Positions 28,422-47,978 of a stretch of 64,000 nucleotides of DNA are shown here, in pieces. The first letter of the stretch is position 1, and each line of letters opens with the position of its first letter. The DNA is from Mycobacterium sp. (GTDB taxonomy: Bacteria; Actinomycetota; Actinomycetes; RYN-182). The notes under the pieces are model-generated. The model was not told the origin of the DNA. It ran no database searches and saw nothing but the letters and a program-made list of their open reading frames with translations. Both the position numbers and the translations under genes were made by a program. The stretch spans positions 430 to 64,429 of the forward strand of contig JAOPWU010000149.1 of NCBI GenBank assembly GCA_025965515.1, read 5' to 3'.

Positions 28422-28527
28422 GCCACACCTCCTTGTGTGCGCCGGCCGGCATGACCGGCGCCACAGAGCCTTCCCTTCGTGGAGGGAACCGGTTGGCAAT
28501 GGCACCGAAATGTGCACGTGATGTGGG

Positions 28528-29331
28528 TCACTCTTCGGCGTGCCCGCGGGCCAGCAGCGCCCGGGTCGCGGCGATCCGCAGGGCAGGGGAGCGGCCCAGC
28601 GCCCGCGTGGCCGCCGCGGGATCGCCCGCCAGCCCGGCCGGGAGCGCGCCGGTCGCCGCGAGCAGGCCGACGGCCGTCCGCTGGCTGTCGAAGGGCACCG
28701 GCCCGGCGTCCCGACCCCGCACCACCCCGTGGCGGGACACGTACAGCCCCGCGGTACCCGGCACCGGCCCGAGACACGTGGTCAGCTGCGCACCGGGGAA
28801 CGGCCGGCGGACGTAGTTCGGCTCCGTGGCGTCCACCGCGGCCAGCTGCTGCCGGTCGAGCCAGAGGACGACGACCGCCGCGCGGGCACCGGGGCGCGGC
28901 AGCGCAGCCGCCGGCACGAAACCGGGTCGGCTGACGTGCGCGGAGTACCCGACGAACAGGCCCTCCGCCTCTGCGGGCAGCGCCGGCAGCGTGGCGGAGG
29001 CGCCGGCCCTCGCCAGCTTCGCCGCCAGCACGCCGGGACAGGCGTTGCTGCCGTACGCGATCACGGGGCGGCGCAGCTCCAGCGGGACGGCGCCCCAACG
29101 CCGCAGCACCGCCGCGAGGCGCACCCGGGCCGCCGCAGCCGCCACCGGCAGCCGCACCAGGGAGGAGCCGAGCAGGACCGCCGGGAAGGGCAGCACGGGA
29201 CCGGGGTAGCGCTCCGGCTCGGCCGCCAGGTCGGCGTCGAGACCAAGCTCCGCGCACCCGCGGCGGGGCGCTTCCGTCACGGCCTTTCCCGGGTGCGGGC
29301 TGATCGCAGAAAAGCAGGGTGGCGACCGCAT
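28528..29331 (-). CDS. gamma-glutamylcyclotransferase (AIG2/GGCT-like) family protein
   Basis: IAYGSNACPGVLAAKLARAG resembles actinobacterial GGCT YGSN motif; stop 107 nt upstream of the asnB start on the same strand; competing plus-strand frame is R/G-rich nonsense. Start uncertain. Confidence 0.4.
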   Translation of the reverse strand: MRSPPCFSAISPHPGKAVTEAPRRGCAELGLDADLAAEPERYPGPVLPFPAVLLGSSLVRLPVAAAAARVRLAAVLRRWGAVPLELRRPVIAYGSNACPGVLAAKLARAGASATLPALPAEAEGLFVGYSAHVSRPGFVPAAALPRPGARAAVVVLWLDRQQLAAVDATEPNYVRRPFPGAQLTTCLGPVPGTAGLYVSRHGVVRGRDAGPVPFDSQRTAVGLLAATGALPAGLAGDPAAATRALGRSPALRIAATRALLARGHAEE

Positions 29332-30354: not shown

Positions 30355-30461
30355 CGTTCACCCAGCCCGTCGCGGGGTGACGAGCTCAAGGGTCCGCCCC
30401 GGACGCCGATGGTGTGCAGGAGGGCAGACCCTCGGCGCGACGGAAGAAGTGAGGCGTCCCT

Positions 30462-32645
30462 GTGCATGCCTCGGGCAGCAGGGACACCGCCGCCGCCGAG
30501 TACGAGCGGCTGGCGGAGCTCGCCACGTTCGGCGACGACGTCGCCGAGCCCACCCCGGCCTGCGACCGGTTGGTGCGGGCAGCCGCGGAGGCCGCCGGAG
30601 TGCCGATGGCGATCCTCAACGTCATGGGCGCGGACCGGCAGCTGTTCAAGGCCCGCGTCGGCCTGGACGAGACGGCTGCGCCCCGTGACCTGGCGTTCTG
30701 TGACCACGTCGTCCGGAGCGACGCGGAGCTCGTCGTCCCCGACACCGCGGCCGACCCCCGCTTCGTGGACCACCCGAGCGTGGTGGGGCCACCCGGCGTC
30801 CGGTTCTATGCCGGCTTCCCGCTGCGTACCCCGGCAGGGGCCGTGCTCGGCACGTTGTGCGTGCTCGACGTGCGCCCGCGGGAGCTGACCGACGGGCAGC
30901 GCCTGGTCCTGCGCGTCCTCGCCGAGCAGGCCGTCGCGCAGCTGGTGCTCCGGCGGCAGGTGGTCGAGATCCGGGCGGCGGTAGGGGCGGCGGCGCATGC
31001 CAGTCGCGAGCTGCAGCACGCCCGCGACCACGCCCACGACATCATTCGGACGAGCGCGGACGCCTATCTCAGCCTCGACGAGGCAGGGCGGGTCCAGGAA
31101 TGGAACCCTGCCGCGACGGCCATCCTCGGGTACCCCGCGGCGGATGCGCTCGGCGAGACCGTGGACCTCGTCCTGTTCCCGGAGCAGGCCACCGAGTTCC
31201 GGGCGGGAGTGGCCGCGTTCCTGGAGGGTGGTCAGCAGCCCCTCGGCGGTCGCCGCCTCGAGACGTGGGCCCGGGCCGCCGACGGCCGCCGCCTCCCCAT
31301 CGAGGCGACGATCTGGCCGATGCGCGTGGAGTCGGTCTGGCGCTTCAACATCCTGCTGCGGGACACGACGGAGCGGGCTGCTGCCGCGACAGCGCTGCAG
31401 CGCGCCCACCGTGAGCTCGCCGAGGCCCTCGACGCGATGCGACGCTGCATCGTGCTCCTCGACGTGGAGCGGGACGGCACCGGCGCCCCGCGGACGCTGC
31501 GGGTTCGGTGGGCGAACCGACACCTGCTGGGCATGGTCGGCCTCGACCTGGCCGACGTGGTCGGACTGCCGCTCGGTGACCTGATGCCGCTCGTCACCGG
31601 CGACCACGGGGACCGCTTCCTCGAGGTGGCGCGGACCGGGGTGCCGTTCCAGCTGGTCGACCAGTGGTACACCGGCTCGCACGGCGCCGGCAGCTGGCGC
31701 TACACGGTGACGCCGTGGAACGACGGCCTGATGCTGGAGGCGCAGGACGTCACGGACCGGCGCGCCGCGCTGGCCGCGCTGCGGGCGTCGGAGCAGCGGC
31801 TGCGGCAGACGCAGGCGCTGGCCGGGCTCGCCTCCTGGGACTGGGACCTGGTCACTCGGGAGCAGACCTGGTCGCCGTTGGTGGCGACGCTGCTGGGCGT
31901 CGATGCGGACGTCGTCCCGACCATGGAGCTCTGGCGGAAGCTGATCCACCCGTCCGACCAGCCGGCCACGGTGCGGGCCTGGCGGGCGCTCCTCGCGGAC
32001 GGCGGGTCTGCGCGGCTCGAGTTCCGGGTGTGCCGCCCGGACGACTCCATCGCCCACGTGCGCTGCTGGGTCACCGTGACGCAGGACCCGGACAACGGCC
32101 GCCCGCTGCGCGCCTGGGGGATCTGCCAGGACATCACGGCCAGCCGGACGCGGGAGGCGCACCTGCGCGACGAGGCGTTGACGGACCCGCTGACGGGGTT
32201 GCGGAACCGGCGGGGCTGGCAGAAGGACGCCGGCGACCTGCTGGACCGCGGCCGCGCGCAGGGCATCCCCGTCGCGGTCGCCGTCCTGGACCTCGACCAC
32301 TTCAAGCAGCTGAACGACACCCGCGGCCACGTCGCCGGCGACGAGCTGCTGCGGGGCTGCGGCGAGGCGTGGCGGCAGCTGCTGCGCCGCGGCGACGTGC
32401 TCGCCCGCGTCGGCGGCGAGGAGTTCGCCCTGCTGCTGTCCGGCTGCGACCTCGACCGCGGCCGGCACGTCGTGGACGAGCTGCGCTCCGCGGTGCCGGC
32501 CGGTGCCACGGCGAGCGCCGGCGTAGCCCTGGTAGGGGCGACGGAGTCGTTGAAGCACGCGTTGGCCCGTGCGGACTCGGCGCTGTTCCTGGCCAAGCGC
32601 GAGGGGCGGAACCGCACCCGCACCGCGGCCGCGGCGGGGGACTGA
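30462..32645 (+). CDS. sensor diguanylate cyclase with GAF, tandem PAS and GGDEF domains
   Basis: 727 aa; GAF (ILNVMGADRQLF...FYAGFPL); PAS repeats; GGDEF domain with RGHVAGDELL and GGEEF active-site motif. Confidence 0.85.
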   Translation: MHASGSRDTAAAEYERLAELATFGDDVAEPTPACDRLVRAAAEAAGVPMAILNVMGADRQLFKARVGLDETAAPRDLAFCDHVVRSDAELVVPDTAADPRFVDHPSVVGPPGVRFYAGFPLRTPAGAVLGTLCVLDVRPRELTDGQRLVLRVLAEQAVAQLVLRRQVVEIRAAVGAAAHASRELQHARDHAHDIIRTSADAYLSLDEAGRVQEWNPAATAILGYPAADALGETVDLVLFPEQATEFRAGVAAFLEGGQQPLGGRRLETWARAADGRRLPIEATIWPMRVESVWRFNILLRDTTERAAAATALQRAHRELAEALDAMRRCIVLLDVERDGTGAPRTLRVRWANRHLLGMVGLDLADVVGLPLGDLMPLVTGDHGDRFLEVARTGVPFQLVDQWYTGSHGAGSWRYTVTPWNDGLMLEAQDVTDRRAALAALRASEQRLRQTQALAGLASWDWDLVTREQTWSPLVATLLGVDADVVPTMELWRKLIHPSDQPATVRAWRALLADGGSARLEFRVCRPDDSIAHVRCWVTVTQDPDNGRPLRAWGICQDITASRTREAHLRDEALTDPLTGLRNRRGWQKDAGDLLDRGRAQGIPVAVAVLDLDHFKQLNDTRGHVAGDELLRGCGEAWRQLLRRGDVLARVGGEEFALLLSGCDLDRGRHVVDELRSAVPAGATASAGVALVGATESLKHALARADSALFLAKREGRNRTRTAAAAGD

Positions 32646-32748
32646 CAGCCGACCGACGCCCGGCGACCCGGTGTGCCGAGCCGAATCGCCGGCACCGTTC
32701 AGACGCACTCGTGGGATTCCGATACGTCCGGTATCCGCGGCACCGCGG

Positions 32749-33942
32749 ATGCCGTCTCATCGTGGAGGTTTGTCGGCCGTGGTCGCTCCCCGGATCGTGG
32801 TCGCCGTCGACGACGGCTCGCTCCCCGCTGCACTGCGCTGCGTGCTCGGTGGCTACCGCAGTAGCTGGGACCTCCGCTGCGGCACGGCCGCCGACGTGCC
32901 CGGCTGGCTGGCCGAGGCGCCGGCGGACGTGTTCGTCACGGACGGCGACACCGGCCTGGCGCTGTTGCGCGAGGTCCGTAGCTTGCACCCCGCCACCACC
33001 TGCCTGGTCCTGGTCGACGCGTGCGACGAGGCCGCGCTGCCGGGGCTCGCCGGGCTGGCGCACCAGGTGCTGGCGCGGCCGTGCGACGGCCTGACGCTGT
33101 TCGGTGTCATCAACGGCGTGCTCGACGTCCGGCGGTTGCTGGACGACGACCGGCTCCGCTCGCTGCTGGGTGAGGTGGAATCGCTCCCGAAGCCCCCTTC
33201 GTTGCACGCCGAGATCCTCGCGGTCACGGCCCGGGAGGACGCCTCCCTGACGGAGGTGGCCGCGGTCATCGCCGGTGACCTCTCGCTGTCGGCGGACATC
33301 CTGCGGCTGGTCAACTCGCCGTTCTTCGGACAGCGGGGGACCGTGAGTTCCGTCGAGCGGGCCGCCGTGCTGCTGGGTGTCGACACGCTCCACGCGCTCG
33401 CGCTGGCAGGCAAGCTGTTCGCCACGGACGCCCCGCTGCCGCGCGGGCTGGACGCGGCCGCGGTGCGCGCCCGGGCCGAGCGCTCCGGCGCCTTCGCCCG
33501 CGCCATCGCCCGGGCGGAGGAGTGGCCGAGCGGCCTCGCCGGCGCCGCGTTCCTGGCCGCCATGTTGCACGACGTCGGGCTGCTGGCGCTCGCCGCCGCC
33601 GACCCGGTCGCCTTCGAGCTGTTCACGAAGTTCGAGCTGCCGGGGCTCGCGCCGTACGAGCGGGAGCGGGCGGCCTTCGGCTGCTCGGTGGCCGACGTGA
33701 GCGGCTACCTGCTCGGCCTCTGGGGGTTCGACGCGGAGGCCGTGCGGGCGCTCGTCGACCAGCCGCCGGTGGGCGCCGACCTGGTGGGGCCGTCGGTCGC
33801 CCACGCCGTCGCGTACGCCCGCCACCTGGCCGGGGGCGGGGAGCCCGAGCGGGACCGGCCGGGCCGGGACGCCGACGGCGCGGCGCGGGCGCGCCGCTGG
33901 GAGGACGCCGCCATGGGCGCCCTCGCCATCACGCTGCCGTAG
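32749..33942 (+). CDS. HDOD domain signalling protein with N-terminal receiver-like domain
   Basis: N-terminal CheY-like fold region (IVVAVDDG...VFVTDGDTGL); C-terminal HDOD (ILRLVNSPFFGQRGTVSSVERAAVLLG...MLHDVGLLAL). Confidence 0.7.
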   Translation: MPSHRGGLSAVVAPRIVVAVDDGSLPAALRCVLGGYRSSWDLRCGTAADVPGWLAEAPADVFVTDGDTGLALLREVRSLHPATTCLVLVDACDEAALPGLAGLAHQVLARPCDGLTLFGVINGVLDVRRLLDDDRLRSLLGEVESLPKPPSLHAEILAVTAREDASLTEVAAVIAGDLSLSADILRLVNSPFFGQRGTVSSVERAAVLLGVDTLHALALAGKLFATDAPLPRGLDAAAVRARAERSGAFARAIARAEEWPSGLAGAAFLAAMLHDVGLLALAAADPVAFELFTKFELPGLAPYERERAAFGCSVADVSGYLLGLWGFDAEAVRALVDQPPVGADLVGPSVAHAVAYARHLAGGGEPERDRPGRDADGAARARRWEDAAMGALAITLP

Positions 33943-40451: not shown

Positions 40452-41717
40452 ATGCGCACCGACCTCGCTACCGGATCCGGCCCCGTGGACGTCCTCGTGG
40501 TGGGCGGCGGCCCGGCCGGGCTGTCGGCCGCCGCCTCGGCCGCGAAGGCGGGCGCCCGGGTGCAGGTGCTCGAGCGCGGCGCCGGCATCGGCGTGCCGGT
40601 CCGCACCAGCGGCGGCAGCTTCACCCGGCCGTTGCGGGCGCTCGGGCTGCCCTCCTCCTGCTGGCACCCCGTCACGGCCATCCGGATCGCGGGGCCGCAC
40701 CGCGACGTCGTGTTCCGGTACCGGCGGGCACTCGGCTGCGTGATCGACGTGCGGGCGCTCTACCAGTGGCTGGCCTCGCGCGCGGGGGACGCCGGCGCGG
40801 CCCTGGCGCTGCGGAGCACGGTGACCGGTCCGCTGCTGGACGGGGACCGGGTGGCCGGGGTCCGGCTGCGCGACGGCTCGGAGCGGGAGGCGCGGTGGGT
40901 CGTCGACGCCAGCGGGCAGGCGGGCCTGCTGGCGCGCGCCGCCGGGCTGCGGACGGCGACCGACGAGCGGCGGGCGCTGGGCCTGGAGGCCGAGGTCTAC
41001 GCCCCCCGGTACGACCAGCGGGAGGCGCTGCTCGTGGTCGGCGACGCCGTGGCGCCCGGCGGGTACGGCTGGGCCTTCCCGGTCGGGAACGGCCGGGTGC
41101 GGCTGGGGGTCGGCGTGGTGCGGCCGGACAGCGACGCGGAGCTGCCGCCGCTGCTGGCGGGGCTCGTGGAGCGGGTCCCCGCGCTGCGGGAGGCCTGCGC
41201 CGGGGCGGTGCCGCTGGAGGAACACGCCGGCGTCATGCCGGCGCTGCCGTTCGGCTCGGTGCCGTTCACGGCGCCCGGGCTGCTCGTGGCCGGCGACGCG
41301 GCCGGCCAGGGCTCGACGCTCATCGGGGAGGGCATCCGGTACGCCATCGCGGCCGGACGGCTCGCCGGGTCGGTCGCGGCGGATGCGGTGGCCGCGGGCC
41401 CGCAGGGGGAGCGGCTCGCCGTCGCGCGGTACGAGCGGGAGTGGCGGGCGGAGCAGGGCACCGGGATGCGCGTCGCGTGGGAGGTGCACCAGCGCGTCTG
41501 CCGCTACACGGACGACGACTGGGTGCGGGTGGTCGACCTGGTGGCGCGGCTGAGCCCCGGCCAGGTCGCCCGGGCGCTCGCGGGGGAGCTGGACGGCCGG
41601 TTCGCCGCCAGCCTGCTGCTGACCCGGCCCCACGTGGTCCTGGGTGCCGGGCGGTCGCTGCTCCGTTCGTCGGCACCGTTCCTGGGCCGTTCGGGTGGCG
41701 CGTCGGCGAAATCGTGA
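40452..41717 (+). CDS. FAD-dependent oxidoreductase, geranylgeranyl reductase family
   Basis: 421 aa; VDVLVVGGGPAGLSAAASAAKAGARVQVLER; GDAAGQ motif. Confidence 0.75.
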   Translation: MRTDLATGSGPVDVLVVGGGPAGLSAAASAAKAGARVQVLERGAGIGVPVRTSGGSFTRPLRALGLPSSCWHPVTAIRIAGPHRDVVFRYRRALGCVIDVRALYQWLASRAGDAGAALALRSTVTGPLLDGDRVAGVRLRDGSEREARWVVDASGQAGLLARAAGLRTATDERRALGLEAEVYAPRYDQREALLVVGDAVAPGGYGWAFPVGNGRVRLGVGVVRPDSDAELPPLLAGLVERVPALREACAGAVPLEEHAGVMPALPFGSVPFTAPGLLVAGDAAGQGSTLIGEGIRYAIAAGRLAGSVAADAVAAGPQGERLAVARYEREWRAEQGTGMRVAWEVHQRVCRYTDDDWVRVVDLVARLSPGQVARALAGELDGRFAASLLLTRPHVVLGAGRSLLRSSAPFLGRSGGASAKS

Positions 41718-41899
41718 GATGTCTCACTCTTCTTGCGGCGGGCCCCCCCGCGGCCTGCGGAAACGGTCTTGCCGGGGTGCGCCACCCGGCCACCTGATGG
41801 CCACCGGGGCGTCACGCTGTGGGCACGCTGTGCGTTCGTCCTTGTACCGTCTGCTCTCGCCGCCCACCGGGTGGTCACGACCCGCGATCGCCGAACCCT

Positions 41900-42060
41900 G
41901 CCCCGCGGGCCCCCGTGACGAGCCGTCCCCAGGGCAGGGGCGGGGGAACCACACGCACCGGTCCCCCCGGAGCACCGGGGCCCGTGGTGTCACCGCGGAC
42001 CCCTTGGGGTGAAGTCGCGCGAGCGACGGGGCTATCTCCAGCCCCAACCCGACAGCTCAC
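41900..42060 (+). promoter_or_regulatory. candidate ydaO-type (cyclic-di-AMP) riboswitch in 5' leader of NlpC/P60 gene
   Basis: 370-nt leader; pseudo-symmetric halves GCGGGGGAACCACAC ... GGGGTGAAGTCGCGCGAGCGACGGGGCTATCTCCAGCCCCAACCCGACAG matching the remembered ydaO elements (GGGGUGAAUC, ACGGGG, ACCCGA); ydaO commonly precedes rpf/NlpC-P60 genes in Actinobacteria. Confidence 0.45.
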
Positions 42061-42090
42061 CTCGTAGGCGTGCGGAGAAGAACCCTTCCC

Positions 42091-42861
42091 ATGTCGTCTG
42101 CTCACCCGCAGCTCAGCCATGCCTCCTTCCGCCCCGTGCGCCTGCTCGCGGCCACCGCCGCCACCGGTGCCACCCTCGTCGGCGGTGCCGTGCTCGCCGC
42201 TCCGGCGAACGCGGCCGTCACCCCGGTCTCGGCCGTCTCCGGCGTCGCGGACGTCTCCTCCTCCTCCGCCGTGTCGGTCGCCTCCTCGTACGTCGGCGTC
42301 CGCTACGTGTACGGCGGGGCCAGCCCGTCCGGCTTCGACTGCTCCGGGTTCACCCAGTACGTGTTCAGCCAGCTCGGCATCAACCTGCCCCGCACGGCCG
42401 CCGCCCAGTACGGCGCGGTGTCGCACGTCTCGCAGGGTGCCAAGCAGCCCGGTGACCTGCTGTTCTTCTCGGACGGTGGCGGCATCTACCACGTCGCGAT
42501 CTACGCGGGCGGCGACAGCATGTACGACGCCCCGCACAGCGGCACCACCGTCGGCCTGCGCGGTATCTGGAGCGGCAGTTACCTCGTCGGCCGTGTCGGC
42601 GGCGTCGGCTCGGCGCCCGTCGCGCTGAGCAGCACCGACACCCAGGCGTCGACGTCCGGCATCGCCGTCGGCGGGGGCCTGCTGTCCTTCGGTTCCACCG
42701 GCTCGTCCGTCTCGGCCGTCCAGTCGAAGCTGGGCGACGTCGCGGTCGACGGCGTCTTCGGGCAGCAGACCCGTGGCGCGGTCATCACGTTCCAGCAGGA
42801 CCACGGTCTGCTCGTCGACGGCATCGTCGGGCCGCAGACCCGCGGCGCGCTGGGGCTCTAG
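42091..42861 (+). CDS. NlpC/P60 peptidoglycan endopeptidase with C-terminal peptidoglycan-binding domain (RipA/Rpf-interacting-like)
   Basis: Signal peptide; catalytic YVYGGASPSGFDCSGFTQYVF (Cys) and H in YHVAIYAGG; C-terminal PG_binding_1 (GVFGQQTRGAVITFQQDHGLLVDGIVGPQT). Confidence 0.85.
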   Translation: MSSAHPQLSHASFRPVRLLAATAATGATLVGGAVLAAPANAAVTPVSAVSGVADVSSSSAVSVASSYVGVRYVYGGASPSGFDCSGFTQYVFSQLGINLPRTAAAQYGAVSHVSQGAKQPGDLLFFSDGGGIYHVAIYAGGDSMYDAPHSGTTVGLRGIWSGSYLVGRVGGVGSAPVALSSTDTQASTSGIAVGGGLLSFGSTGSSVSAVQSKLGDVAVDGVFGQQTRGAVITFQQDHGLLVDGIVGPQTRGALGL

Positions 42862-42897
42862 TCCCCCAGCACCGCTCCGGACCCGTGCCGGACACCG

Positions 42898-42930
42898 CAG
42901 CAGGCCGGTCCCGCAGGGGGCCGGCCTGCT
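42898..42930 (+). terminator. stem-loop downstream of NlpC/P60 gene
   Basis: GCAGGCCGG-(12 nt)-CCGGCCTGC perfect 9-bp stem; no U-tract (common in high-GC actinobacteria). Confidence 0.35.
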
Positions 42931-43085
42931 GCCGTCCGGACCCGCAACACGGTCGGAACCAGCCCGACGCCGGCCCGCAACGACCGGCGTCCTCGATGGA
43001 ACGGACGCCGGCCGCGGATCGTCCGCTCCGGTGACGGGCGTCGCGCGGCCGTTCGACCGGCGAGCGAAGGGGTACTCGACCAACC

Positions 43086-44879
43086 ATGTGTGGCCTGAGC
43101 GGAGAGATACGGCTGGACGGCAGGCGGGCCGACGTGCTCGCCGTCGAGCGGATGGCGAGCACCATGGACGACCGCGGCCCCGATGGTGCGGGCAGCTGGT
43201 CCCAGGGGCCGGTCGCGCTCGGGCACCGGCGGCTGCAGGTGATCGACCTCTCCGCCGCCAGCGCCCAGCCCATGGTCGACGGCGTCACCGGCCTCGCCGG
43301 CGTCTTCAACGGCTGCATCTACAACTACCCGGAGCTCCGGAAGGAGCTCGCCGGGCTCGGTCACACCTTCACCTCGCACGGCGACACCGAGGTGATCTTC
43401 AAGGCCTACCGGCAGTGGGGCCTGGACTTCGTCTCCCACCTCAAGGGCATGTTCGCGGTCTGCCTCGTCGAGCGGGACTCCGGCCGGGTGGTCCTGGCCC
43501 GCGACCGGCTCGGCATCAAGCCGCTGTACTACTCGGAGGCCCCGGGCCGGATCCGCTTCGCGAGCACCATGCCCGCGCTGCTGGCGGGCGGCGAGGTCGA
43601 CACCACCGTCGATCCGGTCGCGCTGCACCACTACCTGACCTTCCACAGCGTCGTGCCGGCGCCGCTCACCATCCTCAAGGGGATCCGGAAGCTGCCGCCC
43701 GCCACCGTGCGGGTCGTCGAGCCCGACGGCCGCATCACCGACACCACGTACTGGGCGTCGGACTTCTCCCGCCACCCGTCCCGCGCCGACTGGTCGCCCC
43801 GCGACTGGGAGGACGCCGTCGAGGAGAGCCTCACCGCGGCCGTGCGGCGCCGCATGGTCTCGGACGTCCCGGTGGGTGTGCTGCTGTCGGGCGGCCTCGA
43901 CTCGAGCCTCGTGGTGGCGCTGCTGGCCCGGGAGGGCCAGCAGGACCTCGCCACGTTCTCGATCGGCTTCGACTCCGTCGGCGGCCGGGAGGGCGACGAG
44001 TTCCGCTACTCCGACCGCATCGCCGCCGAGTTCGGCACCGACCACCACCAGCTCCGCGTGCCCAGCACGGACATGCTGCTGGCGCTCGAGGACGCCGTCG
44101 CCGCGATGAGCGAGCCGATGGTCAGCCACGACGCCGTCGCATTCCACCTGCTGTCCGCGGAGGTCGCGAAGAACGTCAAGGTCGTGCAGTCCGGGCAGGG
44201 CGCCGACGAGGTCTTCGGCGGCTACCACTGGTACCCGCCGCTCGCGGGCGTGTCCCGCGAACAGGCCCTCGAGGTGTACAGCCGGGCGTTCTTCGACCGC
44301 GACCACGCCGGCGTGAACAGCATCGTCACGCCGCGGTACGCCGTCGACCACGACGTGAGCCGGCAGTTCGTCGCCGACCACTTCAACGAGCCGGGCGCCG
44401 AGACGGCGGTGGACGCCGCGCTGCGGCTCGACACGAACGTGATGCTCGTCGACGACCCGGTGAAGCGCGTCGACAACATGACCATGGCGCACGGCCTGGA
44501 GGCCCGGGTCCCGTTCCTCGACCACGAGCTGGTGGAGCTGGCGGCGCAGTGCCCGCCGGAGCTCAAGCTCGCGAACGACGGCAAGGGCGTGCTCAAGGAG
44601 ATCGGGTACCGGCTGTTGCCGCGGGAGGTCATCGACCGCCCGAAGGGCTACTTCCCGGTCCCGGGGATCACGCACCTGGAGGGGAAGGTGCTGGACCGCG
44701 TCATCGACGCACTGCACGCGCCGGTGGCCCGCGAGCGCGGCCTGTTCCGCGACGCCTACGTCGACCCGCTGCTCGCGGATCCCAACCGGGAACTCACCCC
44801 CCTGCGCGGCAATAAGCTGTGGCAGCTCGGCCTGCTGGAGATGTGGCTGCAGGCGCACGGCATCCCGGCGGGAGGCTGA
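43086..44879 (+). CDS. asnO: N-acetylglutaminylglutamine amidotransferase (asparagine synthase-like class II GATase)
   Basis: MCGLSGE N-terminus (Cys2); SGGLDSS PP-loop; immediately followed by ngg and the NAGGN-system M42 peptidase. Confidence 0.85.
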   Translation: MCGLSGEIRLDGRRADVLAVERMASTMDDRGPDGAGSWSQGPVALGHRRLQVIDLSAASAQPMVDGVTGLAGVFNGCIYNYPELRKELAGLGHTFTSHGDTEVIFKAYRQWGLDFVSHLKGMFAVCLVERDSGRVVLARDRLGIKPLYYSEAPGRIRFASTMPALLAGGEVDTTVDPVALHHYLTFHSVVPAPLTILKGIRKLPPATVRVVEPDGRITDTTYWASDFSRHPSRADWSPRDWEDAVEESLTAAVRRRMVSDVPVGVLLSGGLDSSLVVALLAREGQQDLATFSIGFDSVGGREGDEFRYSDRIAAEFGTDHHQLRVPSTDMLLALEDAVAAMSEPMVSHDAVAFHLLSAEVAKNVKVVQSGQGADEVFGGYHWYPPLAGVSREQALEVYSRAFFDRDHAGVNSIVTPRYAVDHDVSRQFVADHFNEPGAETAVDAALRLDTNVMLVDDPVKRVDNMTMAHGLEARVPFLDHELVELAAQCPPELKLANDGKGVLKEIGYRLLPREVIDRPKGYFPVPGITHLEGKVLDRVIDALHAPVARERGLFRDAYVDPLLADPNRELTPLRGNKLWQLGLLEMWLQAHGIPAGG

Positions 44880-44881
44880 CC

Positions 44882-46708
44882 GTGGCGGCACCCAGCACGA
44901 CGCGACCCGGCGCGACGCAGCCCGGCACGACGCGGTCCCGCGAGCAGACGGGCCCGGGTGGTGACCCGGTGTTGCACGACGCGGCCGACGCCGACCCGAT
45001 CTCGGTCGAGCACAAGGGCGTCGTCGTCGACTGCGGCTGGGGGCGGCTGGTCTTCGGCCAGACCTTCCCGAGCGGCGACGACGCGGCCGAGGTGCTGCGC
45101 GCCGAGGCACCCGGCTCCCGGGACATCTGCCTGTACCTGCCGGACCCGCACGTGCTCGTGGCGCGCCGCTACGGCGAGCTGTTCCTCGACCCGTCGTACA
45201 CGTACCGGCTGGACCTGACGCGGCCGCTGCCGGAGCGGAACGGGCGGCTCGCACCCCCGGCCGGGCTGACCATCCGCCCGCTGCGCGACGCGAAGGACGC
45301 GGAGACCGTCAACTCGATCTACGCGCGCAACCGCATGGTGACGTCGCCGGTGGAGACCATCGTCGCGAACGCCACCACGCCGGTGTTCGAGCACCTCGTC
45401 GCAGAGGCGAGCGACGGGGCGGTCGTCGGCACCATCACGGGTGTCGACCACGTCGCGGCGTTCGGCGACCCGGAGGCCGGCACCAGCCTGTGGTGCCTCA
45501 CGGTCGACAACCAGTACGCGCCGCCCGGCACCGGCATGGCGCTGACCCTGGACCTCGCCGAGCGGTTCGCCGAGCGGGGCCGCCGCCGGCTGGACCTGTC
45601 CGTTCTGGCGGACAACGCGGGCGCCATCCGGCTCTACGAGAAGCTCGGGTTCGAGCGGGCCCCCGTCTTCTGCGTGAAGCGCAAGAACAGCATCAACGAG
45701 CCACTGTTCGCCCCGTCACCCGAGGGCTACGACGCCCTCAACCCGTATGCGCGCATCGTGGCGGACGAGGCACGGCGGCGGGGCATCGACGTGGAGGTGC
45801 TCGACGCGGAGTGGGGCGAGCTGCGGCTCACCCACGGCGGCCGCAGCATCGTCACGCGGGAGTCGCTGTCGGAGCTGACGTCCGCCGTGGCGATGAGCCG
45901 CTGCGACGACAAGCGCATCACCCGGCGGCTGTTCGAGCGGGCCGGGCTCGCGGTCCCCGCCGGCCGGCTGGCGGACGGCGGCGACGGCGACCGGGCCTTC
46001 CTCGCCGAGCACGGCAGCGTGGTCGTGAAGCCGGCCCGCGGTGAGCAGGGCCACGGCATCACCGTCGGCATCACGGACCCCGCGGACCTGGAGCCCGCGG
46101 TCGCGGCCGCGCGCCGGTTCTCCGACGACGTGCTGGTGGAGCAGTTCTTCGAGGGGGAGGACCTCCGCGTCATCGTCATCGACCACGAGGTCGTCGCGGC
46201 GGCGCTGCGCCGCCCCGCGGAGATCGTCGGCGACGGGGAGACGGACATCCGCACGCTGGTGGAGCGGCAGAGCCGCCGCCGGGCCGCGGCGACCGGCGGC
46301 GAGTCCCGCATCCCGCTCGACGAGGCCACCGAGGCCACCCTCCGCGCGCAGGGCAGGAGCTGGGACGACGTGCTGCCCGCGGGGGAGCACCTGCGGGTGC
46401 GGCGGACCGCGAACCTGCACACCGGCGGCACGATCCACGACGTCACGCCGCAGCTGCACGCCACGCTGGCGGAGGCCTGCGTGACGGCCTCGCGGGCGCT
46501 GGACATCCCGGTGACGGGGCTCGACCTGCTCGTGGTCGCCCCCGACAGGCCCGACCACGTGTTCGTGGAGGCGAACGAGCGGCCGGGGCTCGCGAACCAC
46601 GAGCCGCAGCCAACGGCCGAGAAGTTCATCGATCTGCTGTTCCCGGCGACGCGCGCCGTCCCGCGGGGGTGGCGCGCGGCGGGGGTCCCGGCGGACCGGA
46701 CACCCTGA
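44882..46708 (+). CDS. ngg: N-acetylglutaminylglutamine synthetase (GNAT acetyltransferase fused to ATP-grasp/cyanophycin-synthetase-like domain)
   Basis: GTG with GGAGG RBS, 2 nt after asnO stop; N-terminal GNAT (LADNAGAIRLYEKLGFE); C-terminal ATP-grasp (VVKPARGEQGHGITVGI...NLHTGGTIHDVT). Confidence 0.85.
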   Translation: MAAPSTTRPGATQPGTTRSREQTGPGGDPVLHDAADADPISVEHKGVVVDCGWGRLVFGQTFPSGDDAAEVLRAEAPGSRDICLYLPDPHVLVARRYGELFLDPSYTYRLDLTRPLPERNGRLAPPAGLTIRPLRDAKDAETVNSIYARNRMVTSPVETIVANATTPVFEHLVAEASDGAVVGTITGVDHVAAFGDPEAGTSLWCLTVDNQYAPPGTGMALTLDLAERFAERGRRRLDLSVLADNAGAIRLYEKLGFERAPVFCVKRKNSINEPLFAPSPEGYDALNPYARIVADEARRRGIDVEVLDAEWGELRLTHGGRSIVTRESLSELTSAVAMSRCDDKRITRRLFERAGLAVPAGRLADGGDGDRAFLAEHGSVVVKPARGEQGHGITVGITDPADLEPAVAAARRFSDDVLVEQFFEGEDLRVIVIDHEVVAAALRRPAEIVGDGETDIRTLVERQSRRRAAATGGESRIPLDEATEATLRAQGRSWDDVLPAGEHLRVRRTANLHTGGTIHDVTPQLHATLAEACVTASRALDIPVTGLDLLVVAPDRPDHVFVEANERPGLANHEPQPTAEKFIDLLFPATRAVPRGWRAAGVPADRTP

Positions 46709-46724
46709 CCTTCGCGAGTCGGGC

Positions 46725-47978
46725 ATGAGGCGCGCAGAGCCCCGGTACTGTGAAGATGTGACTGCCGTGGATCTCCCCGCTCAGCAGCACGGAGAGTCCA
46801 TCGCGGTCCCCGTTGAGATCGACATGGCCTACGTGCAGCGCGTCCTGCTCGAGCTGCTGCACATCCCCAGCCCCACCGGGCGCACCGACCACGTGCAGCA
46901 GTACGTCGGCGAGGAGCTGTCCCGCCTCGGCATGCAGGTCGTGATGAACCGGCGCGGCGCGATCAACGCGGTCCTCCCGGGTAGCCGCGACGGCGTGGAC
47001 CGCGCGGTCGTCGTCCACACCGACACGATCGGGTGCATCGTCAAGCGGCTCAAGGACAACGGGCGGCTCGAGGTGCGCTCCGTCGGCACGCACAGCGCCC
47101 GGTTCGCCGAGGGCGCCCGCGTGCGGATCTTCACCGACGACCTGGAAACGGTCTACTCCGGCACGGTGCTCCCGCTGAAGGCGAGCGGGCACAAGTACGA
47201 CACCCAGGTCGACACCCAGGGCGTCAGCTGGGAGCAGGTCGAGGTCCGCGTCGACGAGAAGGTGCACGACGACGCCGGGCTGCGGGAGCTGGGCATCGAC
47301 GTCGGGGACTTCGTGGCGCTGCTCAGCGAGCCGGACATCACCCCGACCGGGTACGTCAACGCGCGGCACCTCGACGACAAGGCCGGCGTGGCCGCGGCCC
47401 TCGGCGCGTTCAAGGCCGTCCTCGAGGCGGGCCTCGTCCCCCCCGTCAACGCGCACCTCCTCGTCACGTGCACCGAGGAGGTCGGGCACGGGGCGAGCGC
47501 GGGGATCGACAGCAACGTCGCGGAGATCGTCAGCCTCGACACGGCGGTCGTCGCTCCCGGGCAGCAATCCCGCGAGGACGCGGTCACCGTCGGGATGGGC
47601 GACGGCGTCGGGCCGTTCGACTACCACCTCACGCGGTACCTGACGGGCCTCGCGCGCGCCAACGGGCTGCCGCACACGCGGGACGTCTTCGACTTCTACC
47701 GGTCCGACCTGGCTGCGGCGCTCGAAGCGGGCGCCGACACCCGGGTCGCGCTGCTCGGGTTCGGCGTCGACGCGACGCACGGCTACGAGCGGACCCACCT
47801 CGACGGGCTCAACGCCCTCGCGCAGCTCGTCGCGCTCTACATCCAGTCGGACCTGGTGTTCCCGGAGTGGGACGCCACCGCCGAGGGCCGGCTGGCCGAC
47901 TTCCCGTCGCTGGCCGTGCAGCCCGCCGACGAGGAGGGGCCCCGCGAGGGCCCCATCGGCGACGTGTGGGACGACTGA
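46725..47978 (+). CDS. osmoprotectant NAGGN system M42 family peptidase
   Basis: 417 aa M42/FrvX-like aminopeptidase fold (AVVVHTDTIGCIV...LVTCTEEVGHGASAG); conserved third gene of asnO-ngg loci. Confidence 0.8.
   Translation: MRRAEPRYCEDVTAVDLPAQQHGESIAVPVEIDMAYVQRVLLELLHIPSPTGRTDHVQQYVGEELSRLGMQVVMNRRGAINAVLPGSRDGVDRAVVVHTDTIGCIVKRLKDNGRLEVRSVGTHSARFAEGARVRIFTDDLETVYSGTVLPLKASGHKYDTQVDTQGVSWEQVEVRVDEKVHDDAGLRELGIDVGDFVALLSEPDITPTGYVNARHLDDKAGVAAALGAFKAVLEAGLVPPVNAHLLVTCTEEVGHGASAGIDSNVAEIVSLDTAVVAPGQQSREDAVTVGMGDGVGPFDYHLTRYLTGLARANGLPHTRDVFDFYRSDLAAALEAGADTRVALLGFGVDATHGYERTHLDGLNALAQLVALYIQSDLVFPEWDATAEGRLADFPSLAVQPADEEGPREGPIGDVWDD

What the first reader, a model, noticed from the sequence alone, without database searches (positions are those of the whole stretch)
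41900..42090. Candidate ydaO-type c-di-AMP riboswitch upstream of the NlpC/P60 cell-wall hydrolase
The 370-nt leader contains pseudo-two-fold repeated elements (GGGGGAACC ... GGGGTGAAGTC, then ACGGGG and ACCCGA) characteristic of ydaO riboswitches. These riboswitches are frequently found in front of rpf and NlpC/P60 genes in Actinobacteria, linking c-di-AMP to cell-wall remodelling.
Basis: partly seen in the sequence, partly recalled or inferred. Interest (0 to 1): 0.5.

Follow-up and report, generated by a model that had tools for sequence, protein, structure and literature searches.

The report
c-di-AMP riboswitch before a cell-wall hydrolase
This is an ordinary c-di-AMP-sensing riboswitch in the leader of a cell-wall-cutting enzyme gene of an uncultured actinobacterium, and it most likely lowers production of the enzyme by hiding the ribosome-binding site inside its own pseudoknot.

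Summary
Rfam's c-di-AMP model (RF00379) gives one hit in the window, at 41911-42084 (+), scoring 57.2 bits against a gathering score of 38. The gene 12 nt downstream (42091-42861) encodes a secreted NlpC/P60 plus PG_binding_1 hydrolase.

Comparison with 23 actinobacterial relatives corrects the Rfam alignment. The aptamer starts at 41889, with P1 CGCC/GGCG, then GAA, then an 8-bp covarying hairpin. The pseudoknot (UCUCC 42035-39 with GGAGA 42074-78) uses the only Shine-Dalgarno-like sequence as its 3' strand. No terminator follows.

All 23 relatives tested have an equivalent pseudoknot, with a start codon 3-13 nt after it. This points to a translational OFF switch. That mechanism is shown experimentally for a Thermoanaerobacter member and proposed for Corynebacterium nlpC.

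Two things were seen in passing. An MtrA-type tandem box plus a -10 hexamer lies at 41811-41850. The NAGGN osmoprotectant operon lies directly downstream.

Verdict: a new member of a well-known kind, of low interest. Ligand binding and the mechanism are inferred, not measured.

The parts
41811..41826 (+). Candidate MtrA-type response-regulator box: tandem half-sites GTCAC (41811-15) and GGCAC (41822-26), 11-bp period, inside an exact 9-nt direct repeat CACGCTGTG (41813-21 and 41824-32).
   Evidence: Read. The composite pattern (box, 18 nt, TANNNT) occurs once in the window, against 0 in 100 shuffles. The same composite sits 70-90 nt before P1 in 11 riboswitch-bearing relatives and nowhere else in 429 kb of loci. 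It matches the published MtrA consensus (PMC5650626, PMC6265350). Binding is inferred.
41845..41850 (+). -10-like hexamer TACCGT. The predicted transcription start is about 41856-41858.
   Evidence: It has the same GTACNGT element and the same 24-nt offset from the second half-site as in L013 and other relatives. The consensus sigma-70 scan found nothing, as expected for a high-GC actinobacterium. Inferred.
41889..42078 (+). Complete c-di-AMP riboswitch aptamer, from the P1 5' strand to the pseudoknot 3' strand.
   Evidence: Rfam RF00379 hit at 41911-42084, 57.2 bits. The 5' boundary was moved to 41889 by comparison with 23 relatives.
41889..41895 (+). H1 (P1) 5' strand CGCC (41889-92) followed by the conserved junction GAA (41893-95).
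   Evidence: CGCC pairs 4/4 with GGCG 42067-70. The same arrangement holds in 24/24 copies at a fixed 3-nt offset from H2, with 99% of cells paired. The unconstrained MFE fold of 41885-42095 recovers this helix.
41896..41939 (+). H2: 8-bp hairpin stem CCCUGCCC (41896-903) with GGGCAGGG (41932-39), capped by a 28-nt variable apical insert (41904-31).
   Evidence: 8/8 pairs in the window. 99% of cells are paired and 6 of 8 pairs change on both sides across 24 copies. Inverted repeat I3. The strain SNP at 41922 falls in the apical loop. The Rfam alignment wrongly placed P1 and P2 inside this insert.
41940..41949 (+). H3 5' strand GCGGGG (41940-45) and junction GAAC (41946-49).
   Evidence: It pairs with CCUCGU 42060-65 (6/6 including G-U). 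95.8% of cells are paired across 24 copies.
41950..42006 (+). H4: variable-length hairpin closed by CA/UG, with a 53-nt GC-rich insert.
   Evidence: The Rfam alignment shows a 47-nt insertion here. On its own it folds at -28.3 kcal/mol. The insert varies in length and sequence among relatives.
42007..42014 (+). H5 5' strand GGG (42007-09) and junction UGAAG (42010-14).
   Evidence: GGG pairs with CCC 42048-50. These positions are invariant in 24/24 copies.
42015..42026 (+). H6 hairpin UCGC-GCGA-GCGA.
   Evidence: 4/4 pairs. The closing pairs covary in the MAFFT alignment.
42028..42045 (+). H7 hairpin GGGGC/GCCCC with loop UAUCUCCA. UCUCC (42035-39) in the loop is the pseudoknot 5' strand.
   Evidence: 97.5% of cells are paired. 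The innermost pair is C-G in 12 copies and U-A in 12. The closing pair is G-C in the window and C-G in most relatives.
42046..42070 (+). 3' half of the core: AA, H5 3' strand CCC (42048-50), junction GACAGCUCA, H3 3' strand CCUCGU (42060-65), A, H1 3' strand GGCG (42067-70).
   Evidence: AACCCGACAG is invariant in all copies.
42074..42078 (+). Pseudoknot 3' strand GGAGA. It contains GGAG, the only Shine-Dalgarno-like element before the start codon.
   Evidence: It forms 5 bp with UCUCC 42035-39, duplex energy -7.9 kcal/mol. An equivalent 4-9 bp helix exists in 23/23 relatives and beats 1000/1000 partner permutations. It corresponds to the crystal-structure pseudoknot of the T. pseudethanolicus RNA (sequence in PMC5393176; description in PMC11963983).
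42074..42090 (+). Local hairpin GGAGAAG-AACC-CUUCCC that can also pair the SD. Significance unknown.
   Evidence: -5.6 kcal/mol. Invariant among strains but absent from orthologous leaders L082-L084.
42091..42861 (+). Regulated gene: secreted NlpC/P60 peptidoglycan endopeptidase with a C-terminal PG_binding_1 domain (256 aa).
   Evidence: Pfam hits. GC3 is 94%. Cys84 (in DCSG) and His134 are invariant in the alignment. The N-terminus looks like a signal peptide ending in APANA (sequence).
42898..42931 (+). GC-rich palindrome between the hydrolase gene and the NAGGN operon. Probable terminator without a U-tract.
   Evidence: Sequence. It gave spurious mir-3158 matches on both strands. The consensus terminator scan did not call it.

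Best explanation
The leader of the NlpC/P60 gene carries a complete ydaO-class c-di-AMP riboswitch at 41889-42078 on the + strand. The RNA folds into the known pseudo-two-fold scaffold. H1, H2 and H3 form one three-way junction and H5, H6 and H7 form the other. A pseudoknot joins the H7 loop to the 3' tail. (The H labels follow the order of helices in the Rfam model, not the crystal nomenclature.) By homology, the RNA should bind two c-di-AMP molecules. The 3' strand of the pseudoknot (GGAGA 42074-78) is itself the Shine-Dalgarno sequence of the gene, whose ATG is at 42091. When c-di-AMP is high, the ligand-stabilised pseudoknot and P1 would hold the SD in the aptamer core. The 30S subunit then cannot bind, and less hydrolase is made. 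When c-di-AMP is low, the pseudoknot opens and translation proceeds. No separate expression platform is needed. Transcription probably starts near 41857 from a promoter overlapped by an MtrA-type tandem box, which would add a second layer of control. What is shown: family membership, the fold, the pseudoknot and its overlap with the SD, and the absence of a terminator. What is inferred: ligand binding, the OFF direction, and the translational mechanism. My estimates are about 0.95 for identity, about 0.85 for an OFF switch, and about 0.6 for SD sequestration as the main mechanism.
For: RF00379 scores 57.2 bits against a gathering score of 38 and is the only hit in the window. All 32 nested pairs are standard in the corrected fold.

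On 24 actinobacterial copies, 98.1% of cells are paired and 10 of 26 pairs change on both sides. No shuffle out of 500 reached the observed values, and slid controls gave 36-50% paired.

The pseudoknot UCUCC/GGAGA has 5 bp. Equivalent 4-9 bp helices occur in 23/23 relatives, including sequences that are not SD-like (CGACACC/GGUGUCG; AUCUUUCGG/CCGAAAGAU). Mean length is 6.2 for a copy's own partner, 5.2 for permuted partners and 4.3 for shuffled loops, and none of 1000 trials reached the observed mean. In every relative a candidate start codon lies 3-13 nt after the pseudoknot 3' strand; in the window it is 12 nt.

No terminator-like site lies between the aptamer and the CDS or in the early CDS.

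Sequestration of the SD by the pseudoknot, with c-di-AMP-dependent translational repression, was shown for the T. pseudethanolicus riboswitch (PMC11963983). An OFF switch acting on translation was reported for C. glutamicum nlpC (PMC9960051).

The three strain-level variants inside the aptamer fall in an apical loop (41922), at a position where C to U keeps a G-U pair (42000), and in the H7 loop outside the pseudoknot (42033).
Against: No binding or expression data exist for this RNA.

The SD-to-ATG spacer of 12 nt is at the long end of the range in relatives.

The SD can also pair locally with CUUCCC 42085-90 (-5.6 kcal/mol). A longer alternative helix (42067-42095, -12.2 kcal/mol) would cover the P1 3' strand, the SD and the AUG. 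The ligand-free state may therefore not be fully ON.

For S. coelicolor rpfA, a related terminator-less c-di-AMP riboswitch was reported to lower transcript levels (cited in PMC9960051 and PMC10117811).

Start codons in relatives were picked by a simple rule, not verified.

The H2 and H7 5' strands were located by a complementarity search, which favours pairing. P1 and H3 were read at fixed offsets.

No diadenylate cyclase gene was seen among the ORFs scanned in the window, so c-di-AMP synthesis in this organism is assumed from its phylum.
Confidence: 0.8

Rival explanations
1. The element is the same riboswitch, but c-di-AMP acts mainly on transcription or transcript abundance. This would be premature termination or pausing without a canonical terminator, as reported for the Streptomyces coelicolor rpfA leader. 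Occlusion of the SD would then be secondary.
For: Papers read here state that the S. coelicolor rpfA c-di-AMP riboswitch lacks a canonical terminator yet lowers transcript levels in a Rho-independent way (PMC9960051; PMC10117811). The window also lacks a terminator. A block in translation can itself destabilise or polarise an mRNA (established knowledge).
Against: Only 12 nt separate the pseudoknot from the ATG, so there is no room for a separate attenuator. The SD is inside the pseudoknot in the window, and the same position holds in 23/23 relatives. In C. glutamicum nlpC, transcript levels did not respond to c-di-AMP although protein output did.
Confidence: 0.25
2. The element is an ON switch. 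Without ligand, the SD is held in the local hairpin 42074-42090 or the longer 42067-42095 helix. Ligand binding pulls the 3' region into the aptamer and frees the start region.
For: The local hairpin (-5.6 kcal/mol) and the alternative helix (-12.2 kcal/mol) exist. An engineered ON version of a c-di-AMP riboswitch used a competing SD stem-loop (PMC11963983).
Against: Here the pseudoknot strand is the SD itself, so ligand binding also hides it. The hairpin is not conserved in the orthologous leaders L082-L084. Both natural members whose direction was measured in the papers read here (T. pseudethanolicus and C. glutamicum nlpC) are OFF switches, and those papers describe the class as OFF.
Confidence: 0.03
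3. The element is a decayed or non-functional relic of a riboswitch, or a variant aptamer that binds a different ligand.
For: There are no direct binding data. One consensus G in the junction after H7 (GAA) is a C in the window (42045).
Against: The score is 19 bits above threshold. All helices and the pseudoknot are intact. The G-to-C change at 42045 is matched by a G at 42028, giving a G-C pair where relatives have C-G. All core positions invariant in 24 copies are kept. Between strains, the aptamer diverges no more than the background although hyper-divergent tracts flank it.
Confidence: 0.04

Closest known systems
Rfam RF00379, c-di-AMP riboswitch (ydaO/yuaA leader; B. subtilis ydaO/kimA prototype)
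   Same: The element matches the full model above the gathering score. It has the same pseudo-two-fold core, the same conserved junctions (GAA, GGGGGAaCC, GGGGUGAA, AACCCGaCAGCU) and the same pseudoknot.
   Different: According to PMC9960051, the B. subtilis prototype uses an intrinsic terminator and controls a K+ transporter. This element has no terminator and controls a cell-wall hydrolase. H2 here is an 8-bp stem with a 28-nt cap, whereas the Rfam consensus has a 3-bp hairpin with a 6-nt loop. Because of this, the Rfam alignment misplaces P1 and P2.
Thermoanaerobacter pseudethanolicus c-di-AMP riboswitch (crystal structures 4QLM/4QLN; 'riboCdA')
   Same: A pseudoknot joins the last hairpin loop to the 3' tail, and its 3' strand is the SD. 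c-di-AMP-dependent translational repression that depends on the pseudoknot and the SD has been shown experimentally (PMC11963983; sequence in PMC5393176).
   Different: It comes from a Firmicute. It lacks the H2 and H4 inserts. Its pseudoknot is 6 bp, compared with 5 bp here. The downstream genes differ.
Corynebacterium glutamicum nlpC riboswitch (RSnlpC)
   Same: It is actinobacterial and lies upstream of an NlpC/P60 peptidase gene. It has no canonical terminator. It is an OFF switch that acts on translation, and CUCC/GGAG pairing with the RBS has been proposed. The gene is also under MtrA control (PMC9960051).
   Different: The host has a lower GC content. There nlpC heads an operon. The pseudoknot-SD model was only proposed in that paper. 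The sequences were not compared directly here.
Streptomyces coelicolor rpfA c-di-AMP riboswitch
   Same: It is an actinobacterial ydaO-type riboswitch in front of a cell-wall lytic enzyme gene and has no canonical terminator.
   Different: The gene is an Rpf-type lytic transglycosylase, not NlpC/P60. It was reported to act on transcript level.

Membership tests
c-di-AMP riboswitch (Rfam RF00379, ydaO class) | Covariance-model score at or above the curated gathering score | tested here: met
   57.2 bits against 38, E = 1.2e-10, full-length model match, and the only hit in the window. The match was reproduced on a sub-region.
c-di-AMP riboswitch (Rfam RF00379, ydaO class) | Nested helices forming two three-way junctions in a pseudo-two-fold arrangement | tested here: met
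   All pairs are standard in the window. On 24 copies, 98.1% of cells are paired and 10 of 26 pairs change on both sides, with 0/500 shuffles reaching this and slid controls at 36-50%. Caveat: the H2 and H7 5' strands were found by a complementarity search.
c-di-AMP riboswitch (Rfam RF00379, ydaO class) | Pseudoknot between the loop of the last hairpin and the 3' tail | tested here: met
   UCUCC 42035-39 pairs with GGAGA 42074-78. An equivalent helix occurs in 23/23 relatives with covarying sequences. Own partners beat 1000/1000 permutations and 1000/1000 loop shuffles.
c-di-AMP riboswitch (Rfam RF00379, ydaO class) | Conserved junction nucleotides that line the two ligand pockets | tested here: met
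   Sequence level only. GAA after P1, GGGGGAACCA, UUGGGGUGAAG and AACCCGACAGCUCACC are all present, and every column invariant in 24 copies is kept. Which residues contact the ligand could not be checked, because the structure papers are not held.
c-di-AMP riboswitch (Rfam RF00379, ydaO class) | Specific binding of c-di-AMP (two molecules per RNA) | not testable with these tools
   This needs in-line probing, ITC or a similar assay.
c-di-AMP riboswitch (Rfam RF00379, ydaO class) | Location in the 5' leader, on the same strand, of a gene class typical for the family (cell-wall hydrolases in Actinobacteria) | tested here: met
   The aptamer ends 12 nt before an NlpC/P60 gene. 20 of 58 scanned NlpC/P60 loci, all Actinomycetota, have the same arrangement. 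The orthologue-like genes P0011, P0003 and P0002 have it too. The literature agrees.
c-di-AMP riboswitch (Rfam RF00379, ydaO class) | Host makes c-di-AMP (a diadenylate cyclase is present) | not testable with these tools
   No DAC-domain protein was found among the 25 window ORFs scanned with Pfam. The rest of the genome is not available.
Translational OFF riboswitch with the SD inside the aptamer pseudoknot (as in T. pseudethanolicus riboCdA) | The SD sequence is part of the pseudoknot 3' strand, and a start codon lies within ribosome-binding distance | tested here: met
   GGAG at 42074-77 lies inside the pseudoknot strand, and the ATG is at 42091 after a 12-nt spacer. No other SD-like element lies between 42071 and 42090.
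Translational OFF riboswitch with the SD inside the aptamer pseudoknot (as in T. pseudethanolicus riboCdA) | No intrinsic terminator downstream of the aptamer | tested here: met
   The terminator scan of 41600-43200 finds only a weak site at 41714-41727, upstream of the leader.
Translational OFF riboswitch with the SD inside the aptamer pseudoknot (as in T. pseudethanolicus riboCdA) | Ligand-dependent loss of ribosome binding or translation without loss of transcript | not testable with these tools
   This needs toeprinting and paired reporter fusions.
MtrA regulon promoter (actinobacterial OmpR-family response regulator) | Two direct-repeat half-sites of the GTnAC type with an 11-bp period, overlapping the -35 region | tested here: inconclusive
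   GTCAC-N6-GGCAC lies at 41811-26, 18 nt before TACCGT. It is unique in the window. The position is shared with GTGACC-N5-GTGACA boxes in 11 relatives, and it fits the published consensus apart from a T-to-G change in the second half-site. Binding was not tested.

The most novel reading that the evidence does not exclude
In this lineage the riboswitch-controlled hydrolase gene sits directly upstream, on the same strand, of the complete NAGGN osmoprotectant operon (asnO-ngg-M42 peptidase, 43086-47978). This arrangement is kept in all strain variants recovered. If transcription reads through the U-less hairpin at 42898-42931, or if translational repression of nlpC/P60 causes polarity, c-di-AMP would co-regulate synthesis of a compatible solute through this riboswitch. 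Riboswitch control by c-di-AMP is described in the papers read here for ion, osmoprotectant and amino-acid transporters and for cell-wall enzymes, not for compatible-solute biosynthesis.
Probability: 0.07. Interest if true: 0.5.

Novelty: new member of a known kind. Interest (0 to 1): 0.18.

Why it matters
For annotation, this locus should be labelled as a c-di-AMP riboswitch spanning 41889-42078 that controls a secreted NlpC/P60 endopeptidase.

The comparison also gives three modest general points:
- In NlpC/P60-linked actinobacterial members, the Rfam alignment misses the real P1 and an 8-bp H2 stem.
- In all 23 relatives examined, the pseudoknot 3' strand lies where the SD should be. This supports a translational mechanism for the terminator-less actinobacterial members, whose mode of action has been debated (rpfA versus nlpC).
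- These genes often combine an MtrA-type box at the promoter with the riboswitch in the leader. That places cell-envelope stress signalling and c-di-AMP signalling on the same hydrolase gene.

None of this changes what is known about the riboswitch class.

Tried and rejected
1. Single-sequence MFE folding of 41911-42110 gave a z-score of -0.95 and did not recover the family fold, so it is uninformative in 73% GC sequence. With the corrected 5' boundary, the MFE fold does recover P1, H2, H6 and H7.

2. The P1/P2 register taken from the Rfam alignment (AGCC 41921-24, CCC/GGG 41928-39) was rejected. It contains an A.G mismatch. The strain SNP G41922A would break it further. On the MAFFT alignment A3, only 34% (P1) and 57% (P2) of cells pair. 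The alternative register at 41889-41939 pairs in 99% of cells in 24 copies.

3. L081 (P0001) is identical in the leader and gave no comparative information.

4. I first read the strain data as purifying selection on the aptamer: 0.5% divergence against 6% in the 5' leader and the CDS. I toned this down. The divergent CDS tract is confined to roughly nt 150-600, the catalytic domain, and the first 150 nt of the CDS are as conserved as the aptamer. The pattern is a mosaic, and the aptamer is merely at or below the 1-1.7% background.

5. The 11-mer repeat GAACCCTGCCC (41893) / GAACCCTTCCC (42080) was considered as an anti-P2 or expression-platform element. I rejected it as unsupported. Such a match is expected by chance in GC-rich sequence (my estimate), the long-range pairing would be weaker than the local H2, and the repeat is absent from orthologous leaders.

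6. NAGGN genes were sought next to the other riboswitch-NlpC/P60 loci by tblastn. None were found apart from copies of the same locus.

7. The structure papers (PMC3830699, PMC4217635, PMC4282576, PMC4294798) are not held, so ligand-contact residues could not be mapped individually.

8. One DNA search pattern had the wrong spacer length and found nothing. The corrected pattern was run.

9. No custom covariance model was built. Anchored extraction of helix strands was enough.

Full report
**Observation.** The region was read directly.
- GGGGGAACC at 41942-41950
- GGGGTGAAGTC at 42006-42016
- ACGGGG at 42026-42031
- ACCCGA at 42047-42052

The intergenic leader runs from the stop codon of an FAD/geranylgeranyl-reductase-like gene (40452-41717) to ATG 42091, which is 373 nt. 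The downstream ORF 42091-42861 has 94% GC at third codon positions. It matches NlpC/P60 (PF00877, 91 bits) and PG_binding_1 (PF01471, 51 bits). It has a signal-peptide-like N-terminus, and Cys84 and His134 are invariant in the alignment.

cmscan of the whole window against Rfam 15 at gathering thresholds gives a single hit. It is RF00379 (c-di-AMP riboswitch) at 41911-42084 on the + strand, with 57.2 bits against a gathering score of 38, E = 1.2e-10, and a full-length model match. A permissive scan of 41000-43500 adds only spurious microRNA matches to a palindrome at 42898-42931. The first refutation criterion (score below threshold) is therefore not met.

**Relatives.** The protein has only distant relatives apart from near-identical copies from metagenomes.
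- A scan of one genome per species found 80 NlpC/P60 loci.
- Of the 58 I scanned with Rfam, 20 carry RF00379 upstream on the same strand. All 20 are Actinomycetota by record title, and three of them have two riboswitch-hydrolase units.
- The three closest homologues with the same domain order (P0011, P0003, P0002; 46-49% identity in alignment A1) also carry it. Two of these are truncated because their contigs start inside the aptamer.
- The association with cell-wall hydrolase genes in Actinobacteria is documented (PMC9960051, PMC10117811).

**Corrected anatomy.** The Rfam alignment placed P1 at AGCC 41921-24, which includes an A.G mismatch, and placed a 3-bp P2 at 41928-39. Strain variants of the same locus (L086-L090) carry G41922A, which would weaken that P1 further. 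This prompted a second look.

Upstream lies CGCC (41889-92), which pairs 4/4 with GGCG 42067-70. It is followed by GAA, the conserved junction of the family. Next comes CCCUGCCC (41896-903), which pairs 8/8 with GGGCAGGG (41932-39) around a 28-nt cap.

The same layout is found in all 24 copies examined: a P1 5' strand, three junction nucleotides (NAA or NAG), an 8-bp stem, and a 24-43 nt cap. In most copies it starts 20-30 nt before the Rfam hit.

I extracted the helix strands at anchored positions and counted pairs:
- 98.1% of 624 cells form standard pairs.
- 10 of 26 pairs change on both sides, including 6 of the 8 pairs in H2.
- No shuffle out of 500 reaches these values.
- Sliding the partners by 1-3 columns drops pairing to 36-50%.

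One caveat applies. The 5' strands of H2 and H7 were located by a complementarity search, which favours pairing. P1 and H3 were read at fixed offsets. With the corrected boundary, even unconstrained folding recovers P1, H2, H6 and H7. The aptamer is therefore 41889-42078.

**Pseudoknot and expression platform.** In the crystallised T. pseudethanolicus RNA (sequence quoted in PMC5393176), the loop of the last hairpin (CUCCUUC) pairs with the 3' tail (GAAGGAG). PMC11963983 describes this pseudoknot and shows that it contains the SD. It also shows that c-di-AMP represses translation in a manner that depends on the pseudoknot and the SD.

In the window, the equivalent loop sequence UCUCC (42035-39) pairs with GGAGA (42074-78). 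This lies 3 nt after P1 and 12 nt before ATG 42091. GGAG is the only SD-like element there.

All 23 relatives tested have a 4-9 bp helix in the same place. The paired sequences include ones that are not SD-like, such as CGACACC/GGUGUCG, AUCUUUCGG/CCGAAAGAU and GACCUCUG/UAGAGGUC, so the pairing itself is conserved. The mean helix length is 6.2 with a copy's own partner, 5.2 with permuted partners and 4.3 with shuffled loops. None of 1000 trials of either kind reached the observed mean. A candidate start codon follows the pseudoknot 3' strand by 3-13 nt in every case. These start codons were picked by a simple rule.

No terminator-like site follows the aptamer. The second refutation criterion (no covariation-supported pseudoknotted fold) is therefore not met either.

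**Mechanism.** The best-supported reading is a translational OFF switch without a separate expression platform. c-di-AMP stabilises P1 and the pseudoknot, and this buries the SD. This step is inferred from the anatomy and from the two experimental precedents.

The main rival is the transcript-level effect reported for the terminator-less S. coelicolor rpfA leader. The two are not mutually exclusive.

One loose end remains. The SD can also pair locally with CUUCCC 42085-90 (-5.6 kcal/mol), and a longer helix over 42067-42095 (-12.2 kcal/mol) would cover the P1 3' strand, the SD and the AUG. These structures are invariant among strains but absent from the orthologous leaders L082-L084. I treat them as lineage-specific and of unknown significance.

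**Strain variation.** Five metagenomic copies of the same locus differ from the window as follows:

| Segment | Divergence in the second haplotype group |
|---|---|
| Flanking genes | 1-1.7% |
| 5' leader 41734-41855 | 5.9% |
| nlpC/P60 CDS | 6.0% |
| 41889-42090 (aptamer and SD) | 0.5-1.0% |

The divergent CDS tract is confined to the catalytic domain, roughly nt 150-600, with 18 amino-acid changes. The first 150 nt of the CDS are as conserved as the aptamer. The pattern is a mosaic rather than clean evidence of selection on the RNA.

The three variants inside the aptamer are all structurally neutral. They are 41922 in the H2 cap, 42000 where C to U keeps a G-U pair in H4, and a deleted U at 42033 in the H7 loop outside the pseudoknot.

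**Organism.** The window is 71% GC. The best named hits to the neighbouring AsnO protein are only 74-77% identical and come from Polymorphospora, Micromonospora, Isoptericola and Miltoncostaea. The source is therefore an uncultured member of the Actinomycetota with no close cultured relative. No diadenylate cyclase was seen among the 25 ORFs scanned.

**Seen in passing.**

*Promoter.* The leader contains an exact 9-nt direct repeat, CACGCTGTG, with an 11-nt period (41813-21 and 41824-32). It forms tandem half-sites GTCAC and GGCAC, followed 18 nt later by TACCGT (41845-50). This composite occurs once in the window and in none of 100 shuffles. A slightly looser version occurs 13 times in 429 kb of fetched loci. 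Twelve of these lie just upstream of a riboswitch-NlpC/P60 unit, one of them being L081, a copy of the window locus. The thirteenth overlaps one of the sites on the other strand. The relatives' consensus, GTGACC-N5-GTGACA, matches the published MtrA box. Dual control by MtrA and the riboswitch is known for C. glutamicum nlpC.

*NAGGN operon.* The three genes downstream are equivalog-level matches to the NAGGN osmoprotectant system: TIGR03104 (970 bits), TIGR03103 (806 bits) and TIGR03106 (481 bits). A strong U-less hairpin separates them from the hydrolase gene. The adjacency is kept in the strain variants but was not found at other riboswitch-NlpC/P60 loci.

**Verdict.** This is a new member of a well-known riboswitch class in its typical actinobacterial context, and its inferred mechanism already has experimental precedent. 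Interest is low.

Noticed in passing
window 41811-41850: Tandem GTCAC/GGCAC half-sites lie inside an exact 9-nt direct repeat with an 11-bp period, followed 18 nt later by a -10-like TACCGT. The composite is unique in the window. It recurs as GTGACC-N5-GTGACA-N17-21-TANNNT just upstream of the riboswitch in 11 related loci, and it matches published MtrA boxes. This is probably the promoter, with a response-regulator site as a second control layer.
   Followed up: partly
window 43086-47978: Directly downstream on the same strand lies the complete NAGGN (N-acetylglutaminylglutamine amide) osmoprotectant trio: amidotransferase AsnO, synthetase Ngg (GNAT plus ATP-grasp) and an M42 peptidase. All three are NCBIfam equivalog matches. 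c-di-AMP is an osmoregulatory signal, so the adjacency is suggestive. It is kept in the strain variants L086-L090 but not seen at other riboswitch-NlpC/P60 loci.
   Followed up: partly
window 42898-42931: A 34-nt GC-rich palindrome (GCAGCAGGCCGGTCCC GCAG GGGGCCGGCCTGCTGC) without a U-tract lies between the hydrolase gene and asnO. It is a probable terminator. It produced spurious mir-3158 matches on both strands.
   Followed up: no
window 42240-42690 (nlpC/P60 catalytic domain) and 41734-41855: Between strain haplotypes, the catalytic domain of the hydrolase (46 nt and 18 aa differences) and the 5' part of the leader diverge by about 6%. The flanking genes, the aptamer and the signal-peptide region diverge by 0.5-1.7%. 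This is a mosaic that suggests recombination or diversifying selection on the hydrolase.
   Followed up: partly
window 1-21000: GC content is 63-68% here against 72-79% in the rest of the window, and almost no ORFs have the high third-position GC typical of the host. This may be a horizontally acquired segment.
   Followed up: no
window 41893-41903 and 42080-42090; 42074-42090: The junction plus H2 5' strand (GAACCCTGCCC) is nearly repeated just before the start codon (GAACCCTTCCC). The second copy forms a small hairpin with the SD (-5.6 kcal/mol). The repeat is invariant among strains but absent from orthologous leaders, and it could be chance in GC-rich sequence.
   Followed up: partly
L083:1-44, L084:1-44, L085:1-42: Three short metagenomic contigs that carry the closest homologues all begin inside the aptamer, at the invariant CCCGAACCCGACAGC core. 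Assemblies seem to break at this multi-copy conserved sequence.
   Followed up: no
L011 (1843-2014 and 3083-3242), L018 (1112-1295 and 1916-2081), L028 (568-727 and 1842-1997): Three actinobacterial genomes carry two consecutive RF00379 riboswitches on the same strand within the locus of an NlpC/P60 gene. Whether the second aptamer also precedes a hydrolase gene was not checked.
   Followed up: no
window 26568-28781 (-), 30453-33942 (+): A second asparagine-synthase-family gene lies here, next to a GAF-PAS-GGDEF protein and an HDOD-domain protein (c-di-GMP signalling). This is a second cyclic-dinucleotide signalling theme within 10 kb of the c-di-AMP riboswitch.
   Followed up: no
window 41714-41727: A weak terminator-like hairpin (GTGAGATGTCTCAC followed by TCTTCTT) overlaps the stop codon of the upstream reductase-like gene and is invariant among strains. 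It is consistent with the hydrolase gene having its own promoter.
   Followed up: no
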